This document shows positions 30,345 through 35,592 of a stretch of 64,000 nt of DNA, piece after piece (positions within the stretch are counted from its first letter, which is position 1; each line of letters begins with the position of its first letter). The notes below the pieces were generated by a model. It searched no databases, had not been told where the DNA came from, and saw only the letters and a program-made list of their open reading frames with translations. The stretch is taken from positions 32,001 through 96,000 of the IMG/VR virus record IMGVR_UViG_3300036790_000219. One strand, given 5' to 3'. The position numbers and the translations under genes are program-made. This DNA comes from a virus.

Positions 30345-31535
30345 ATGAAACACGAACGTGACTTCCGCTCGGCTAGCGCATTCACGCCGCCCGAGCAGGT
30401 CCTGAACCGCCGTCGTTCTCTTGGACGGTTCCGGACCGTTGACATGTTGACTTTCGACAAGGGTTACACCTTTGACGAAGGGGGTAACATGCGCGGTAAG
30501 TCTCTGGGTCAGGCGTTCAAGACCCACGACGGCCGTACGATTGACTCCACGGGAGCTTTCCTTGTGGGCGAACTTGAGCGTCTCGATCTGACACTCCACG
30601 AGCCATTGGCTGCGGTCAGTTGGGGTCGCGACATTCAACTTCGTGAAGACGTTACGACGGCGGACGAGGTCTCCTCGTTCACGGTCTCGACGTACTACTC
30701 ACCAGGTTCGCTTGGTACTGGTCAGGGTGTTGGCAACGCCAAGTCCTGGATCGGTAAAGACACCAACCAAGTGACTCGTGTGTCGGTTGACATCGCAAAG
30801 GTCACTCAACCTCTCATCCCGTGGGGCAAGGAACTTGCCTATACGGTTCTTGAGCTTGAGTCCGCTGCGAAGCTCGGCCGTCCGGTGGACGAGCAGAAGT
30901 ACCGTGCACTCCAACTCGCCCATCAGATGGAAGTGGACGAAATGGTGTACTATGGTGACACCCCTGGTGCCTTCTACGGTCTGGTCAATTCGAACAACCG
31001 TACGTTCATCGACCAGGTCACGAACGTTTCCAACGTCGCCAACGGTGCGCAAGGTTCGCCACTTTGGACGCAGAAGACGCCTGCTGAGATTCTTCAGGAC
31101 TTCAATGAGGAACTGACCTCGGCATGGGCGGCTACGGGTTGGGCTATCCTGCCTGATTCCATTCTGCTGCCACCAGCGGATTTTGGTTACATTTCAACCC
31201 AGACCGTGTCTACGGCTGGTAACGTATCCATTCTGAACTACGTGCTTGAAAACAATATCACGGCACGGCAGGGTGGCGCAACGCTGGACATCAAGCCGGT
31301 CAAGTGGTGTTTGGGAACTGGCATAGGTGGTACGGTAGGGGTTGGTGCTGCGGGCCATGATCGTATGGTGGTGTACACCAACGATAAGGAGCGCGTTCGC
31401 TACCCGATGACTATGTTAAGCAAGACGCCTCTCCAATATGACTCGATTTGGCATCGCTCAACTTATTATGGCCGTCTTGGCGTTTTGGAGATCGTCTACC
31501 CCGAATGTATATGTTATAGGGATGGAATCAGCTAG
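30345..31535 (+). CDS. Major capsid protein (DUF2184 family)
   Basis: GAFLVGELERLD...WGRDIQLRED...RMVVYTNDKERVRYPM...EIVYP. Confidence 0.88.
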   Translation: MKHERDFRSASAFTPPEQVLNRRRSLGRFRTVDMLTFDKGYTFDEGGNMRGKSLGQAFKTHDGRTIDSTGAFLVGELERLDLTLHEPLAAVSWGRDIQLREDVTTADEVSSFTVSTYYSPGSLGTGQGVGNAKSWIGKDTNQVTRVSVDIAKVTQPLIPWGKELAYTVLELESAAKLGRPVDEQKYRALQLAHQMEVDEMVYYGDTPGAFYGLVNSNNRTFIDQVTNVSNVANGAQGSPLWTQKTPAEILQDFNEELTSAWAATGWAILPDSILLPPADFGYISTQTVSTAGNVSILNYVLENNITARQGGATLDIKPVKWCLGTGIGGTVGVGAAGHDRMVVYTNDKERVRYPMTMLSKTPLQYDSIWHRSTYYGRLGVLEIVYPECICYRDGIS

Positions 31536-31610: not shown

Positions 31611-32612
31611 ATGCCTAAGCACACGATCTACGGCCTCTACGATCCGAGCGATCGGAAAAAGGAGGTTCGCTATGTTGGAGCAACTAAGTTCACGCCTGAG
31701 CAACGTTTAACTGATCACATCTCCGGTGCAGAAGCCGCAGACACTTATAAGAAGAAGTGGATCAGAAAACTGCTCAGGCAGAACTTGGTTCCTGCCATCC
31801 TAGTTCTTGAAGTCACAACGACGAGACACTGGAAGAAGCGGGAGAAGTATTGGATCGCCTACCTTCGTTCTAAAGGTAGCCGCCTAACGAACTCAACGGA
31901 AGGCGGGGAGGGCCTGGTCAACCCAACGAAAAATGTTCGGGCCAGGATTGCCAAGAAGGTTTCTGAGCTTCTTATTGGAAACCAACGCGCTACAGGAATG
32001 AGTCACACAAAAGAAGCCTGTCTGGCTATTTCGAAGGGATTACGGGAATCCAAGAAGTTTCAGCGGTCCCAGCGAAAATGGCGAGGGAAGGCGCGTTATA
32101 CTCCAACCGAGGAATCTAAGCTCAAAATCTCCTTGGCTAACTTGGGAAGACCCCGTCCGGATGTACGAGCTCTTGCTCTTCGCTTAAACAAACGCCGGAA
32201 AGGTTCGGTCTGGGTAACAGATGGAAAGAGCAATAAGCAGATTCTAAAGGGAACCCCAATTCCTAAGGGATTTGTTTGTGGTCGGCTTATGACTTGGCAA
32301 GAACCTGGTAAGGGGCCGACGAAAGGGCGACGGTACATAACTAATGGAGTTGAAAACCAGATGATCGAAATTTCGGCTCCAATCCCCGAGGGCTTTAAGT
32401 TTGGACAAACACGTCATAATCCGCGTCGGGATACAAAGGTAGGTTTAAGAAAATTGAGTGAAACAGTACGGCAACTTAAACTAGGTTTTCGTTTAATCAC
32501 TGATGGTGCGGTTCGCCGTCAGCTTCCAAGGGATCAGGTACTTCCAGCGGGTTGGGTGTTTGTTAAAAAGAACACTCTAAAGTCGCTTACAACCTCGGTC
32601 TCGTTAGATTGA
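31611..32612 (+). CDS. GIY-YIG homing endonuclease with repeated (W/Y/L)(I/V)T(N/D)G modules
   Basis: TIYGLYDP...VRYVGAT...R...REKYWI...LTNSTEGGEG. Confidence 0.88.
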   Translation: MPKHTIYGLYDPSDRKKEVRYVGATKFTPEQRLTDHISGAEAADTYKKKWIRKLLRQNLVPAILVLEVTTTRHWKKREKYWIAYLRSKGSRLTNSTEGGEGLVNPTKNVRARIAKKVSELLIGNQRATGMSHTKEACLAISKGLRESKKFQRSQRKWRGKARYTPTEESKLKISLANLGRPRPDVRALALRLNKRRKGSVWVTDGKSNKQILKGTPIPKGFVCGRLMTWQEPGKGPTKGRRYITNGVENQMIEISAPIPEGFKFGQTRHNPRRDTKVGLRKLSETVRQLKLGFRLITDGAVRRQLPRDQVLPAGWVFVKKNTLKSLTTSVSLD

Positions 32613-33121: not shown

Positions 33122-33304
33122 ATGTCCGAGCGTACGCCAAGCTTCTTGATTCCGTGCGCGCTCGAAGTCGATGAGGACGGGGTCATTGTGAAAGTACTGC
33201 CCGACGTGGTCTGGCTTTCACAAACCCGTGTCCGTCTTGAAACTCACGGTGACACAACGGACTTCCGGCTAGAACCTAAAGGAAAGGAAATGTCCAATGG
33301 TTGA
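33122..33304 (+). CDS. Small hypothetical protein
   Basis: ORF with RBS; overlaps the next start. Confidence 0.5.
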   Translation: MSERTPSFLIPCALEVDEDGVIVKVLPDVVWLSQTRVRLETHGDTTDFRLEPKGKEMSNG

Positions 33305-33620
33305 TTCTAACGACGCTCCTGTATCCGAGGCCCAGCGCAAAGCAATGGGCGCAGCGATGGGTGGCCACTCTACCCTAGGGATCCCCAAGGCTGCAGGGAA
33401 AGAATTTATCGACAAGGACCCCGGTGGGAAGCTGCCGGAGAAGTCCAAGGATGCTACCTCACCGAAGCCGGGCTCGGGACCGATGTCACCAAATGGTCCG
33501 CAAGGAAGTGAGGAGGGTCTGCCAAAAACTACCCGTTCCTTCGGAGCAGGAGATGGGGTTGGGAAAGCGATGAGTCTCGATGAAATAAAAAGCCAGGCCA
33601 AAAGAATCGGCCGTTATTAA
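33297..33620 (+). CDS. Small head-associated-type protein
   Basis: DAPVSEAQRKAMGAAMGGHSTLGIPKAAGKEF motif, which I recall from N-termini of some DUF2213-family head proteins; ends SLDEIKSQAKRIGRY. Confidence 0.7.
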   Translation: MVDSNDAPVSEAQRKAMGAAMGGHSTLGIPKAAGKEFIDKDPGGKLPEKSKDATSPKPGSGPMSPNGPQGSEEGLPKTTRSFGAGDGVGKAMSLDEIKSQAKRIGRY

Positions 33621-33685
33621 ACCATACCGAACCGAACCGGACGCTACCCCAACAAACCACAACGTACCAAACCCCAACTTACCGC
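33621..33685 (-). ncRNA. Array B: 13 phased 5-nt GGY-NN units (candidate guide RNA)
   Basis: + strand accAT accGA accGA accGG acgCT accCC aacAA accAC aacGT accAA accCC aacTT accGC. Confidence 0.85.
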
Positions 33686-33714
33686 ACAAAAAGTAGGAAA
33701 TTTTCAAAACTAAA

Positions 33715-33784
33715 GCCACACCTCACCGCACCGCAACTAAACATTCCTGACCGTACCCGATCCGACCAGAACCCACCACACCTA
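33715..33784 (-). ncRNA. Array A: 14 phased 5-nt GGY-NN units (candidate guide RNA)
   Basis: + strand gccAC accTC accGC accGC aacTA aacAT tccTG accGT accCG atcCG accAG aacCC accAC accTA. Confidence 0.85.
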
Positions 33785-34414
33785 AGTTTTGAATTTAGTT
33801 GTCTGAAATCGTCCATATGTAGGGCGGAAGTCTCCTAGAGCACAGAAACGTCCAGCATTGGTTAGAGCGGAATTCAGGATATCCGGTGAGATATACTCGG
33901 GAAGAAGTACTTGGATATCAAAATCCAATTCCCAGCCAGTTTTGAGCGCTGGGCGGACGCGAGTAATAGCGTTTCGCTGAATGACAGCACGACAGCGGTG
34001 TTCGTAGTGCCAATTTTTGGTTCCAACACTTGCGAGATCAGTTAATACCACAATGCCAGCTTTGAAAAGATCCATGGCTGATTTACGGGGTGATCGTGGA
34101 TCTTGTAGGAACTTTGCTGCGTAGACGAGTGCCATACGTAGCTGCGTTCCTGGTACACAAAGAAAACCTGCGTCGTTTCGATAGACGTAGGACTCAAGGT
34201 CATCGGTCTTTTTTTTTTTTTTTTTTGCTTTCGAGCCTTTTGCGGCATTCGCACTTTCAGCGACCGATTCACAGTTATATCGATGATATAGGTAATCGGC
34301 AACGCCACTGATAGTAACAGAAGCGACGTAAGGTTCAATAAGTTTGTTGGCCGCACCGTTGGTAGGAACTCCCCCACCAATAGATATGACTTCTGCAGTT
34401 ACTCTTTTAGCCAT
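33782..34414 (-). CDS. Stand-alone Cas7/RAMP-like protein (Vipr-like)
   Basis: N-terminal strand VTISGVADYLYH, LCVPGTQLRMALVYAAK, C-terminal Gly loop AGRFCALGDFRPTYGRF; the only clear antisense gene in the late operon. Confidence 0.75.
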   Translation of the reverse strand: MAKRVTAEVISIGGGVPTNGAANKLIEPYVASVTISGVADYLYHRYNCESVAESANAAKGSKAKKKKKKTDDLESYVYRNDAGFLCVPGTQLRMALVYAAKFLQDPRSPRKSAMDLFKAGIVVLTDLASVGTKNWHYEHRCRAVIQRNAITRVRPALKTGWELDFDIQVLLPEYISPDILNSALTNAGRFCALGDFRPTYGRFQTTKFKT

Positions 34415-34575
34415 AGTAAGGTCTCCTTCGCGCCCAGCCAGTAAAGCCCGGAACGCGGTTCAGGGGTCACATTTCTGCGACACCAGACGCGAAGGAGGTT
34501 CGTGTAGGGTGCCGCGTTCTAAAGCCGGTTTACTGCCCAGCTACTAAGAACATACTGGGCATTGAATTTTATCAA
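34415..34575 (-). promoter_or_regulatory. Extended -10 promoter and structured 5' leader with anti-SD
   Basis: TGaTAAAAT on - at 34575-34567; leader helices, and 10-bp complementarity between 34497-34488 and the RBS region 34432-34423. Confidence 0.6.
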
Positions 34576-34592: not shown

Positions 34593-34859
34593 ATGGTCGA
34601 AAAACCCAACTCCCAACCAGGTATCCCGCCGACGTCTGAACCGTCCAGCATGCGGCTACAACAGCCAGGTGAGCCAGCGACGGTCGTGTCGGGAATGCCA
34701 GGTATTGGACAGCCCATCAAGCAGGGACCGTTGTATCGTGATGGCGCTCCGCCTAGCAAGTTCAAGTTGCCGGAATCGGTTACTCCGGCTGAGATCAAGG
34801 ATCAGAGCTACCGTTATGGGGGTGGTAGATCAGCAGGGCGAAAGAGCACCGAACCATGA
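34593..34859 (+). CDS. Pro-rich small protein ending in a scaffold-like helix
   Basis: VTPAEIKDQSYRYGGG resembles the ends of 33297..33620 and of the scaffold. Confidence 0.6.
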   Translation: MVEKPNSQPGIPPTSEPSSMRLQQPGEPATVVSGMPGIGQPIKQGPLYRDGAPPSKFKLPESVTPAEIKDQSYRYGGGRSAGRKSTEP

Positions 34860-35065
34860 AACCTCGTGTCAAGATTATCAATCACGTTGGCCGTAGACGA
34901 ACTGGCGACGCAGAAAATGAACAAGAAGCAGTTATTCTTATGGGGCGCGCAGCGTTTTGCGTGCGTGAAATTACGAGTCGAGCAAAAGCTAACGCTCAAA
35001 TAACTGGAAGGGAGCTTGCACAACTTAAGCAAGCTGTAAAACTGTTGGAGAGCGTTGCTTACTAA
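34856..35065 (+). CDS. Small protein with NH...TxD leader
   Basis: MKPRVKIINHVGRRRTGDA. Confidence 0.7.
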   Translation: MKPRVKIINHVGRRRTGDAENEQEAVILMGRAAFCVREITSRAKANAQITGRELAQLKQAVKLLESVAY

Positions 35066-35592
35066 TGATCACTCCTGGTACTTTTCGAGCGGATTGGCCT
35101 GAGTTTGGGAGCCTTTCGGTTTACCCAAACAACGTCGTTGCGTATTGGATCGCGATAGCTGGGATGCTTCTGAATACTGTGTATTGGGGCATTGGCTCAA
35201 CGGTGGCTGTTGCTCCCCCCACAACGAAGTTGGATTTTGCCACTGAACTCTTCGTTGCCCACAATTTGGTCCTTGAGCAACAAGCCTTTGCTGCGGCGCA
35301 GAGTGGTGGTACGCCTGGTACACAACAAGGTGTTGTCACTAGCAAGTCCGTGGGTTCTGTCAGTCTCGGCTATTCGGTAGCAGAAGTTCTAAATCTTGAC
35401 GGGAGTTTCTGGAACGCTACGAATTATGGCGTTCGGTTTCTCTGGTTAGCACGTTTGGTGGGTTCTGGCCCAATCCAAATTGGGATCGGCAAAGTACCAC
35501 TGCCGTTTCTGACATTTGTGGGTTGGGGTGAGAGCGCGTGGGCCGGACCTTATCCATATCCTCAACAAGGTGATTCTGGTTTCTCAAGCTAA
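35065..35592 (+). CDS. DUF4054 head-tail adaptor-type protein
   Basis: FRADWPEF...LFVAHNL...SKSVGSVS...WNATNYG. Confidence 0.82.
   Translation: MITPGTFRADWPEFGSLSVYPNNVVAYWIAIAGMLLNTVYWGIGSTVAVAPPTTKLDFATELFVAHNLVLEQQAFAAAQSGGTPGTQQGVVTSKSVGSVSLGYSVAEVLNLDGSFWNATNYGVRFLWLARLVGSGPIQIGIGKVPLPFLTFVGWGESAWAGPYPYPQQGDSGFSS

What the first reader, a model, noticed from the sequence alone, without database searches (positions are those of the whole stretch)
33621..34575. Stand-alone Cas7/RAMP-like gene with two phased GGY-NN pentamer arrays: minimal RNA-guided system
Seen: an antisense cassette in the head operon with its own extended -10, a 210-aa RAMP-like ORF and, starting within its stop codon, 14 then 13 five-nucleotide units. 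Three positions per unit are nearly constant (GGT, sometimes GTT/GGC) and two vary freely; a 29-nt AT-rich linker separates the arrays. No cas1/2/5/6, nuclease or classical repeat-spacer array is nearby. Known: Cas7 subunits polymerise along guide RNA with fixed periodicity. I recall a recent report of phage VIPR systems with GGY/NN RNAs but could not verify it here. Inference: one subunit per pentamer forms a filament that binds gapped DNA targets to silence competing phages.
Basis: partly seen in the sequence, partly recalled or inferred. Interest (0 to 1): 0.95.

Follow-up and report, generated by a model that had tools for sequence, protein, structure and literature searches.

The report
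Phage VIPR system: Vipr plus two guides
A 120-kb soil phage carries a small Cas7-like protein gene followed by two guide-RNA genes built from five-letter GGT-NN repeats; this is a real but ordinary new example of the VIPR RNA-guided gene-silencing systems first described in 2026, and what its guides silence is still unknown.

Summary
On the minus strand, a 210-aa ORF (33782..34414) is followed, from the G of its TAG stop, by 14 pentamers (33782..33713), a 29-nt AT-rich linker and 13 pentamers (33683..33619). A terminator-like hairpin comes next. These are the only such arrays in the 120-kb phage genome, and shuffles never exceed 8 units.

The protein is a sequence homologue of the solved SUSP1 Vipr protein (profile E 4.6e-10). 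It keeps that protein's GG-binding thumb and G-loop residues, and its predicted fold matches Cas7/Csm3. Of its relatives, 72 of 77 viral loci and 67 of 73 loci from the genome and phage collections carry same-strand G[GT]Y-NN arrays beside the gene, with the NN positions at maximal entropy.

It is therefore a VIPR system, published as three 2026 bioRxiv preprints. This copy has no vap accessory gene and no conserved tail. This scan already holds 305 VIPR-type notes from at least 241 genomes. It is a new member of a known kind.

No target reaching 80% NN match was found for either guide. Guide 2 has a partial match (7 consecutive perfect NN units, wobble bases skipped) to the neighbouring gene. 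Homologues of that gene in other phages could fit slightly better, which hints at targeting of related phages. Expression and binding were not tested.

The parts
34566..34574 (-). Extended -10-like element TGATAAAAT, a candidate promoter of the cassette. It lies about 20 nt from the divergent start codon of ORF 34593..34859 (+).
   Evidence: Read in the sequence. Not called by the sigma-70 consensus scan. Function is inferred only.
34415..34565 (-). Structured 5' leader of vipr. A long helix pairs CCUCCUUCGCG with the Shine-Dalgarno region CGCGAAGGAG.
   Evidence: RNA fold of 34412-34570 (-): MFE -59.7 kcal/mol, z = -3.5 against 200 dinucleotide shuffles, 1 of 200 folding as well.
33782..34414 (-). 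vipr gene, 210 aa (P0001): the RAMP protein of the VIPR system.
   Evidence: PDB sequence hit to the SUSP1 Vipr protein 36pp_D: E 5.5e-5 for the single sequence and E 4.6e-10 for the family profile, covering residues 57-205. AF2 model pLDDT 81, pTM 0.73. Foldseek top hits are type VII Cas7 and Csm3, E 7.5e-7, probability 1.0, TM 0.5-0.57. phrog_4652, E 3e-15. 6208 homologues at E <= 1e-3.
34209..34226 (-). A18 homopolymer inside vipr. It encodes four extra lysines (KAKKKKKKTDD against KAKKTDD in all 44 aligned homologues).
   Evidence: Alignment A1 and the homopolymer scan. An independent Logan assembly of the probable source sample covers the stretch with no differences listed; the repeat at 34200-34236 was skipped in the comparison.
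33713..33782 (-). vrRNA 1 guide region: 14 pentamers. NN code: GT GG CT CG CG AC CA AT TA GC GC GA GT TT.
33684..33712 (-). 29-nt AT-rich linker, the possible 3' tail of vrRNA 1. No conserved structure was found.
   Evidence: array region no more structured than shuffles, z +0.9. No Rfam family, including hammerhead, matches.
33619..33683 (-). vrRNA 2 guide region: 13 pentamers. NN code: AA GG TT AC GT TT GG AG CC TC TC AT TT.
33586..33612 (-). Terminator-like hairpin GGCCGATTCTTTTGGCC followed by TGGCTTTTTA. Probable end of the cassette transcript.
   Evidence: Terminator scan.
33504..33541 (-). Partial 1-nt-skip match of vrRNA 2 inside the neighbouring gene 33297..33620 (+) (P0121). It scores 18/26 NN bases, with units 5-11 perfect (14/14). 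The skipped bases fall at codon position 3.
   Evidence: A run of 7 or more perfect units occurred in 4 of 300 unit-permuted guides scanned over the whole genome. The total score lies within the null distribution.

Best explanation
The cassette at about 33586..34574 (-) is a VIPR (Viral Interference Programmable Repeat) system carried by a complete 120-kb phage genome with direct terminal repeats, recovered from a soil metagenome. It consists of one gene, vipr, and two guide-RNA genes. These are probably transcribed as one unit from a promoter near 34570 through to the hairpin at about 33600. By homology with the characterised SUSP1 and P. fulva systems, Vipr protomers would polymerise along each vrRNA, one per pentamer. 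Each would hold the G-G/U-Y scaffold bases through the thumb arginine (R154) and the G-loop (D195, F196, R197). The two variable bases of each unit would be left free to pair with double-stranded DNA, skipping every third target base. The bound filament would block transcription of a competing mobile element. The system has no vap accessory gene and no conserved pseudoknot tail. It sits antisense in the head module, with lower G+C than its flanks, like an acquired cassette. Shown here: the anatomy, the homology, the fold, and the family-wide linkage of gene and arrays. Also shown: guides of this clade fit the 1-nt-skip rule against rival vipr genes. Inferred: transcription, RNA processing, filament formation, DNA binding and silencing in this phage. 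The targets of its two guides remain unidentified.
For: Sequence homology to the solved SUSP1 Vipr. In those alignments SUSP1 R138, C173, D177, W178 and R179 align with R154, C191, D195, F196 and R197 of P0001. According to the structure paper these residues hold G1, G2 and Y3. R154 and R197 are invariant, and D195 and F196 nearly invariant, in 45 homologues. The fold is RAMP/Cas7. Arrays of 14 and 13 units fall within the published 9-16 range, lie on the gene's strand and start at its stop codon. Family linkage is strong: 72 of 77 IMG/VR loci have same-strand arrays within 1.2 kb of vipr, with 199 arrays in 182 kb near the gene against 8 in 558 kb elsewhere. Unit positions 4 and 5 have entropy 1.97 and 2.0 bits. 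67 of 73 loci from the genome and phage collections show the same arrangement. Skip-rule test on 365 guides from 135 dereplicated loci: matches of 90% or more number 6 under the 1-nt skip, and 0 under 0-nt skip, 2-nt skip or permuted guides. Hits include the G-loop codons IGIGDFRPTYGRF and the thumb codons VNRTRPALKAGW of other phages' vipr genes, with the skipped base at the wobble position. The array RNA is unstructured, as expected for a protein-bound guide. The carrier is a complete viral genome. Cassette G+C is 47.5% against 51-53% in the flanks.
Against: No RNA data exist for this phage, so transcription, strand and processing are unverified. No target with 80% or more NN match was found for either guide. 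Searched: the phage's own genome, 233 related loci, IMG/VR (exact patterns of 11-14 units), the GTDB genome contigs (one 11-unit pattern of guide 1) and 401 genomes of one bacterial class (guide 1, up to 3 mismatches). Nine of the 27 scaffolds are not GGY (six GTT, plus GAT, GGA and CGT), and the paper reports that perturbing GGY abolishes silencing in SUSP1. The A18 tract inserts four lysines into a conserved basic patch. The alignment of SUSP1 H17 with H44 rests on a non-significant alignment segment.
Confidence: 0.88

Rival explanations
1. Guide 2 has a real target in the gene next to the cassette (P0121 family, 33297..33620 +). Either it targets the homologous gene of related, competing phages, with this phage's own copy protected by divergence at three codons. 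Or it makes a weak self-contact, just beyond the cassette terminator, that acts as a transcriptional roadblock or regulator. This refines the main explanation rather than replacing it.
For: Seven consecutive NN units match perfectly at 33529..33509 (-), about 90 nt from the array, with every skipped base at codon position 3. A run of 7 or more occurred in 4 of 300 permuted guides genome-wide. The guide decodes to [KN][IM][DE][DE]GLP[KN]TV[KN]P[FL]. The gene's own product reads GSEEGLPKTTRSF, while the family consensus of nine homologues is GTSEGLPKTVEPF. The phage's own copy departs from both consensus and guide at T79 and S81, where the consensus has V and P. Homologues P0122 and P0128 allow up to 20/26 against 18/26 for self. 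The third VIPR paper reports self-match scores lower than rival-match scores as a way to avoid autoimmunity.
Against: Overall identity is 69% for self and at most 77% for any sampled homologue, below the authors' 80% threshold. The total score is within the null. The three 3'-most units do not match in any homologue, and in SUSP1 assembly on DNA starts at the 3' end. The homologue scores are upper bounds derived from protein sequence, because their DNA could not be fetched. The gene family was chosen after the self-match was seen.
Confidence: 0.3
2. The cassette is a decaying or inactive VIPR remnant. Degenerate scaffolds and a slippage-expanded lysine tract would have disabled it, and it persists only as a passenger.
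For: One third of the scaffolds deviate from GGY. The A18 tract is unique among 45 homologues. No target was found for either guide.
Against: The ORF is intact and in frame. All alignable RNA-contact residues are kept. Both arrays have canonical lengths. The authors note frequent internal degeneracy in functional vrRNAs. Most uncultured soil phages lack sampled competitors, so a missing target is expected.
Confidence: 0.08
3. It is a reduced CRISPR-Cas effector: a Cas7 of type III, IV or VII that lost its partners and is served by an unrecognised mini-array.
For: The best structural matches are type VII Cas7 and Csm3.
Against: No Cas7 or RAMP model in Pfam, NCBIfam or PADLOC matches. Sequence homology is to Vipr, not to any Cas protein in the PDB. 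There is no repeat-spacer array. The repeats have a 5-nt period, with two variable bases per unit. No conserved cas-like neighbour appears in 77 related loci.
Confidence: 0.02
4. The pentamer tracts are not guide RNAs. They would be coding repeats or structural DNA, such as G-quadruplex-prone GG tracts acting as a terminator or recombination signal.
For: Short minus-strand ORFs overlap the tracts (33679..33816 and 33486..33719). GG every 5 nt could form two-tetrad quadruplexes (general knowledge).
Against: A 5-nt period cannot keep a reading frame. In relatives the arrays vary in number, length and side of the gene but always keep its strand. The two variable positions are at maximal entropy while the scaffold is fixed, which is the published guide signature. 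Relatives' NN codes match rival vipr genes under the skip rule.
Confidence: 0.02

Closest known systems
Type II VIPR of Escherichia phage SUSP1 and a Pseudomonas fulva prophage (bioRxiv 10.64898/2026.04.26.720920; structures in 10.64898/2026.04.26.720927; PDB 36pp)
   Same: A small RAMP protein of about 200 aa, homologous in sequence (profile E 4.6e-10), with the same thumb arginine and G-loop D-aromatic-R triad. Guides of 9-16 pentamers with a fixed three-base scaffold and two free bases, on the gene's strand. Phage-borne. The skip-one-base (wobble) logic is recovered in this clade's guides.
   Different: No vap1 partner gene. No conserved tail or pseudoknot: one guide ends in a 29-nt AT-rich linker, the other in a terminator hairpin. 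The arrays start inside the stop codon. The G-loop aromatic residue is Phe rather than Trp. 22% of units are GUU. Similarity is confined to conserved motifs; the significant phmmer segment for the single sequence covers only residues 149-205.
Other VIPR types (I, III-VII) and 'staggered' vrRNA arrays of the same paper (fig. S17-S19 legends)
   Same: The paper names six vap genes for seven types, so one type should lack a vap, as this locus does. Relatives of this Vipr often carry long arrays with +1-nt register shifts, like the staggered arrays described.
   Different: The type cannot be assigned here. The paper's tree, tables and supplementary data are not held. No hammerhead ribozymes, reported for types I and V, were found in this locus or in 12 relatives. 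This locus has two discrete guides rather than a staggered array.
Phage DSL-LC04 (OR003939.1; host Gammaproteobacteria), gene WJZ48083.1
   Same: The nearest Vipr homologue in a deposited named phage genome (53% identity over 91%). It has GGY-NN arrays on the same strand.
   Different: Its arrays lie upstream of the gene. The gene is annotated as a helix-turn-helix regulator and sits among early genes, not in a head module.
Class 1 CRISPR backbone proteins Cas7/Csm3 (e.g. 8z4l_F, 9ash_F, 6ifl_F)
   Same: RRM core, thumb hairpin and glycine-rich loop. Foldseek probability 1.0 and TM about 0.5-0.57. These proteins polymerise on guide RNA with a fixed period.
   Different: 10-16% sequence identity and no family-model match. 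5-nt rather than 6-nt periodicity. No Cas5, Cas6 or large subunit, no repeat-spacer array, and a non-contiguous guide.

Membership tests
VIPR system (Vipr + vrRNA) | A Vipr protein homologous to characterised Vipr proteins | tested here: met
   PDB 36pp_D 'SUSP1 Vipr protein': phmmer E 5.5e-5. Profile of 45 homologues: E 4.6e-10, query residues 57-205 against chain residues 30-188.
VIPR system (Vipr + vrRNA) | A minimal RAMP fold: a single RRM core, a thumb and a glycine-rich loop | tested here: met
   AF2 model pLDDT 81, with a beta-hairpin at 137-157 and the C-terminal loop GDFRPTYGRF. Foldseek finds Cas7/Csm3 at E 7.5e-7.
VIPR system (Vipr + vrRNA) | Residues that hold the GGY scaffold (SUSP1 H17, R138, D177, W178, R179, C173) | tested here: met
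   R154, D195, F196 (conservative W to F), R197 and C191 align in the significant segments. R154 and R197 are invariant; D195 and F196 are nearly invariant in the family. The pairing of H17 with H44 comes from a non-significant segment and is tentative.
VIPR system (Vipr + vrRNA) | Adjacent same-strand tandem pentamers, 9-16 units, with conserved GGY and hypervariable NN | tested here: met
   14 and 13 units; 18 of 27 are GGY and 24 of 27 are G[GT]Y. Across the family, unit positions 1-3 are conserved and positions 4-5 have 1.97 and 2.0 bits of entropy. The detector itself requires G[GT]Y, so scaffold conservation is partly circular; the NN entropy is not.
VIPR system (Vipr + vrRNA) | Targets obey the 1-nt-skip rule (80% or more NN match to a competing element) | tested here: inconclusive
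   For this phage's two guides, no match of 80% or more was found. For the clade, an excess of matches of 90% or more appears only under the 1-nt skip: 6 against 0, 0 and 0.
VIPR system (Vipr + vrRNA) | vrRNAs are expressed as RNAs of about 100 nt and co-purify with Vipr, and the complex represses transcription | not testable with these tools
   No RNA run holds this sequence. This needs small-RNA sequencing, a pull-down and a reporter assay.
VIPR type II (SUSP1 type) | A vap1 accessory gene in an operon with vipr | tested here: not met
   There is no second same-strand ORF in the cassette. No neighbour gene is conserved across 77 related loci, and none is shared with this locus.
VIPR type II (SUSP1 type) | A conserved structured 3' tail (pseudoknot) after each repeat tract | tested here: not met
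   The two 3' flanks differ (AT-rich linker against terminator hairpin). The array region is no more structured than shuffles. No motif is enriched after 242 array ends in the clade apart from the ribosome-binding site of the downstream vipr.
CRISPR-Cas Cas7 families (Csm3/Cmr4/Csf2/Cas7) | A match to a Cas7 sequence family model, with cas partners and a repeat-spacer array | tested here: not met
   No Pfam, NCBIfam or PADLOC match. There is no CRISPR array and no cas neighbours. The similarity is at fold level only.

The most novel reading that the evidence does not exclude
Guide 2 is a kin-exclusion guide. It would be aimed at the conserved EGLPKTV.PF codons of the small gene that flanks the cassette's insertion site in related phages. 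This phage's own copy would escape through a three-codon divergence (TTRS instead of TVEP). A vap-less two-guide VIPR cassette would then police its own genomic neighbourhood against close relatives.
Probability: 0.25. Interest if true: 0.5.

Novelty: new member of a known kind. Interest (0 to 1): 0.35.

Why it matters
VIPR is a months-old discovery: an RNA-guided DNA binder with a non-contiguous code, proposed as an ancestor of the CRISPR RAMP proteins. This locus adds a clean, very compact natural example. It has one 210-aa protein, two guides and no accessory gene, all in under 1 kb, in a complete 120-kb soil phage. The Vipr clade it belongs to is large: more than 6,000 homologues at E <= 1e-3, found in phages and in genomes assigned to many bacterial phyla. 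The clade-level analysis gives an independent, if small, replication of the skip-one-base rule outside the published SUSP1 and P. fulva (type II) clades. It also shows guides that spell the G-loop and thumb codons of rival vipr genes, the same 'VIPR against VIPR' warfare reported for SUSP1 relatives. It does not change the picture of what VIPR is.

Tried and rejected
1. Hammerhead ribozymes or any Rfam family in the cassette or in 12 multi-array relatives: none found.

2. Exact 1-nt-skip patterns in IMG/VR, as full guides and as 11-unit windows of both guides: no match. One 11-unit window of guide 1 in the GTDB genome contigs: none. Guide 1 with up to 3 mismatches in 5 and then 401 bacterial genomes: none. 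The host is unknown, so these blanks say little.

3. Homologues of the neighbouring gene P0121. None in IMG/VR. None in four large vipr-bearing phage records. None in any fetched locus. Protein homologues do exist, but their DNA could not be fetched.

The closest Vipr relative (P0002, 79-82% identical) could therefore not be compared guide by guide.

5. The search for related loci with the single protein in metagenomes: nothing. The profile run gave only relatives at 64% identity or less.

6. Expression: no RNA holder is listed. One soil-metagenome DNA run, probably the source, gave an identical contig.

7. A vap candidate. RusA plus a ResIII helicase follow vipr in 14-16 of 77 relatives. They are absent here and may simply be those phages' replication genes.

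8. Type assignment (I-VII): the paper's figures and supplementary data are not held.

9. DNA similarity of the cassette to deposited phages: none.

Full report
**What is there**

On the minus strand, ORF 33782..34414 encodes a 210-aa protein, P0001. The G of its TAG stop is the first base of a run of 14 five-base units (33782..33713). A 29-nt linker follows (33712..33684, 72% A+T), then 13 more units (33683..33619). After that comes a terminator-like hairpin with a T-run (33612..33586).

The scaffold triplets are GGT x17, GTT x6, GGC, GAT, GGA and CGT. The two remaining bases of each unit vary freely. A register-aware detector finds these two arrays and nothing else in the window or in the whole 120,057-bp genome. 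In 100 Markov shuffles the longest run is 8 units. The arrays are internally phased but out of phase with each other.

Upstream of the ORF lies a 150-nt leader that folds far better than shuffles (z -3.5) and pairs with the Shine-Dalgarno sequence. An extended -10-like TGATAAAAT sits at 34574..34566; the consensus scan does not call it as a promoter.

The cassette lies antisense between head-module genes: major head protein 30345..31535 and virion protein 35065..35592. Its G+C is 47.5%, against 51-53% in the flanks. The record is a complete IMG/VR viral genome with direct terminal repeats. It occurs in one soil-metagenome run, probably its source.

**What the protein is**

Pfam, NCBIfam and PADLOC give nothing. 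PHROGs gives only an unnamed family, phrog_4652.

Against the sequences of solved structures, the only significant hit is 'SUSP1 Vipr protein' (36pp_D). The single sequence gives E 5.5e-5, and a profile of 45 homologues gives E 4.6e-10 over residues 57-205.

The structure paper (10.64898/2026.04.26.720927) names the residues that hold the GGY scaffold. These are R138 in the thumb, D177, W178 and R179 in the G-loop, and C173. In the significant alignment they correspond to R154, D195, F196, R197 and C191 of P0001. R154 and R197 are invariant, and D195 and F196 nearly invariant, among the homologues. The correspondence of H17 with the invariant H44 rests on a weak alignment segment.

An AlphaFold2 model (pLDDT 81) shows an RRM core, a beta-hairpin thumb and the C-terminal glycine-rich loop. 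Foldseek returns type VII Cas7 and Csm3 chains at E 7.5e-7, probability 1.0.

**Is the gene-array link real across relatives?**

The family is large, with 6208 proteins at E <= 1e-3.

- In 77 IMG/VR loci where the gene could be placed, 72 have same-strand G[GT]Y-NN arrays within 1.2 kb.
- There are 199 arrays in 182 kb near the gene, against 4 on the plus and 4 on the minus strand in the other 558 kb.
- Unit positions 4 and 5 carry 1.97 and 2.0 bits of entropy.
- 67 of 73 loci from the genome and phage collections, spanning many phyla, behave the same way.
- The nearest homologue in a deposited named phage genome, in phage DSL-LC04, has arrays upstream of a gene mis-annotated as an HTH regulator.

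Arrays may lie upstream or downstream of the gene. They often run on with +1-nt register shifts. They have no conserved tail.

No neighbouring gene is conserved across the clade. A RusA nuclease and a ResIII helicase follow vipr in a subset of loci, but not here.

**Comparison with what is known**

VIPR systems were described in April 2026 (10.64898/2026.04.26.720920). They consist of a Vipr RAMP protein plus vrRNAs of 9-16 GGY/NN repeats. The NN bases read double-stranded DNA while skipping one base per unit, usually the wobble base. Binding silences transcription of competing phages and satellites. Seven types and six vap accessory genes are reported.

This locus meets the defining features that can be tested by computation. 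It fails two type II features, the vap1 gene and the conserved pseudoknot tail. A vap-less type is implied by the paper's count of six vap genes for seven types, but the type cannot be assigned without the paper's tree. This scan already holds 305 VIPR-type notes from at least 241 genomes.

**Does this clade use the same code?**

I decoded 365 guides from 135 dereplicated relatives and scanned 1.17 Mb of related loci plus this genome. I tested 0-, 1-, 2- and 3-nt skips and unit-permuted controls.

Matches of 90% or more numbered 6 for the 1-nt skip. They numbered 0 for the 0-nt skip, the 2-nt skip and the permuted guides. The 3-nt-skip hits are arrays matching homologous arrays. One of the six 1-nt-skip hits is low-complexity.

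The real hits include:

- A 13-unit guide in L093 that matches 24/26 on the codons for IGIGDFRPTYGRF, the G-loop of another phage's vipr (L078).
- A guide in L004 that matches 21/24 on VNRTRPALKAGW, the thumb of the vipr in L083.

In both, the skipped base is at codon position 3. The L093 guide also reaches 21/26 (81%) on this phage's own vipr at 33807..33844. It is the only one of the 365 guides to pass 80% inside the cassette, and no permuted guide does. This parallels the 'VIPR against VIPR' targeting in 10.64898/2026.10.15.759431.

**Targets of this phage's guides**

Neither guide has a match of 80% or more anywhere I could search.

I checked this. At 33541..33504 (-), inside ORF 33297..33620 (+), 18 of 26 NN bases match, not the 19 claimed. 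Units 5-11 are perfect (14/14), and every skipped base is at codon position 3. A run of 7 or more occurs in 4 of 300 permuted guides genome-wide. The total score is not above the null.

The gene is real, with nine full-length homologues. The guide spells [KN][IM][DE][DE]GLP[KN]TV[KN]P[FL]. The phage's own product reads GSEEGLPKTTRSF, and the family consensus is GTSEGLPKTVEPF. At T79 and S81 the phage's own copy departs from both the guide and the consensus.

Homologues allow up to 20/26, an upper bound derived from protein sequence. That remains below 80%. The three 3'-most units fit none of them, and in SUSP1 DNA engagement starts at the 3' end. I rate a real relationship at about 0.3. The more specific reading, kin-targeting with self-escape, I rate at about 0.25.

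**Mechanism, with its status**

Shown here:

- the anatomy of the cassette;
- homology to Vipr and the RAMP fold;
- conserved RNA-contact residues;
- family-wide linkage of gene and arrays;
- skip-rule matches in the clade.

Inferred by homology:

- Co-transcription of vipr and both guides, then release of the guides.
- One protomer bound per pentamer.
- Gapped pairing to DNA and transcriptional silencing of a competitor.

Unknown: the targets, the host, and the effect of the GUU units and of the four extra lysines. The major capsid protein's cultured relatives infect Proteobacteria.

**Verdict**

This is a new member of a known, very recently published kind. Interest is moderate to low.

Noticed in passing
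window 34209-34226: There is an A18 homopolymer (on the minus, coding strand) inside vipr. It adds four lysines to the conserved SK.KKTD basic patch; all 44 aligned homologues have KAKKTDD. In the profile alignment the patch aligns with SUSP1 K38-T42, next to R39, which clamps the non-target strand. A run this long is prone to slippage and could switch the gene on and off, or it may be a tolerated expansion. A second assembly of the probable source sample agrees. A21 also occurs at genome position 1520-1540.
   Followed up: partly
window 34415-34565 (-): The vipr leader is strongly structured (z -3.5). A 10-nt anti-SD segment pairs with the ribosome-binding site, so it may act as a translational gate on Vipr synthesis. 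Its conservation in relatives was not examined.
   Followed up: partly
window 33807-33844; L093 around 1399; L078 6553-6590; L083 4442-4476: Guides in other phages' VIPR loci spell the G-loop (GDFRPTYGRF) and thumb (RTRPALKAGW) codons of rival vipr genes, skipping the wobble bases. The L093 guide reaches 81% on this phage's own vipr, so this phage is itself a predicted target.
   Followed up: yes
window 31611-32612 (+): A GIY-YIG homing-endonuclease-like gene (Pfam GIY-YIG E 2.7e-5; phrog_314) sits directly after the major head protein gene, 1.2 kb from the VIPR cassette. This stretch of the head module seems to collect mobile inserts.
   Followed up: no
L023 6629-7117, L028 7132-8838 and about 14 further loci: In a sub-clade of related loci, vipr is followed on the same strand by a RusA endonuclease and a ResIII/DEAD helicase with a zinc ribbon. 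These could be nuclease- or helicase-type vap genes, or just the phages' replication module.
   Followed up: partly
L162 (OR003939.1, phage DSL-LC04) 2465-3082: The Vipr homologue of this deposited phage is annotated as a 'helix-turn-helix transcriptional regulator', and a GGY-NN array lies unannotated upstream at about 2190-2440. This is a database mis-annotation.
   Followed up: partly
window 33297-33620 (+), P0121: This small Gly/Pro/Lys-rich protein has a conserved N-terminal DPPVSEAQRKAMGAA..GIP motif and a C-terminal MSLDEIK..KRIGRY motif. About 50 homologues exist in metagenomes, many of them covering only the N-terminal part. It has no family assignment, and its function in the head module is unknown.
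   Followed up: partly
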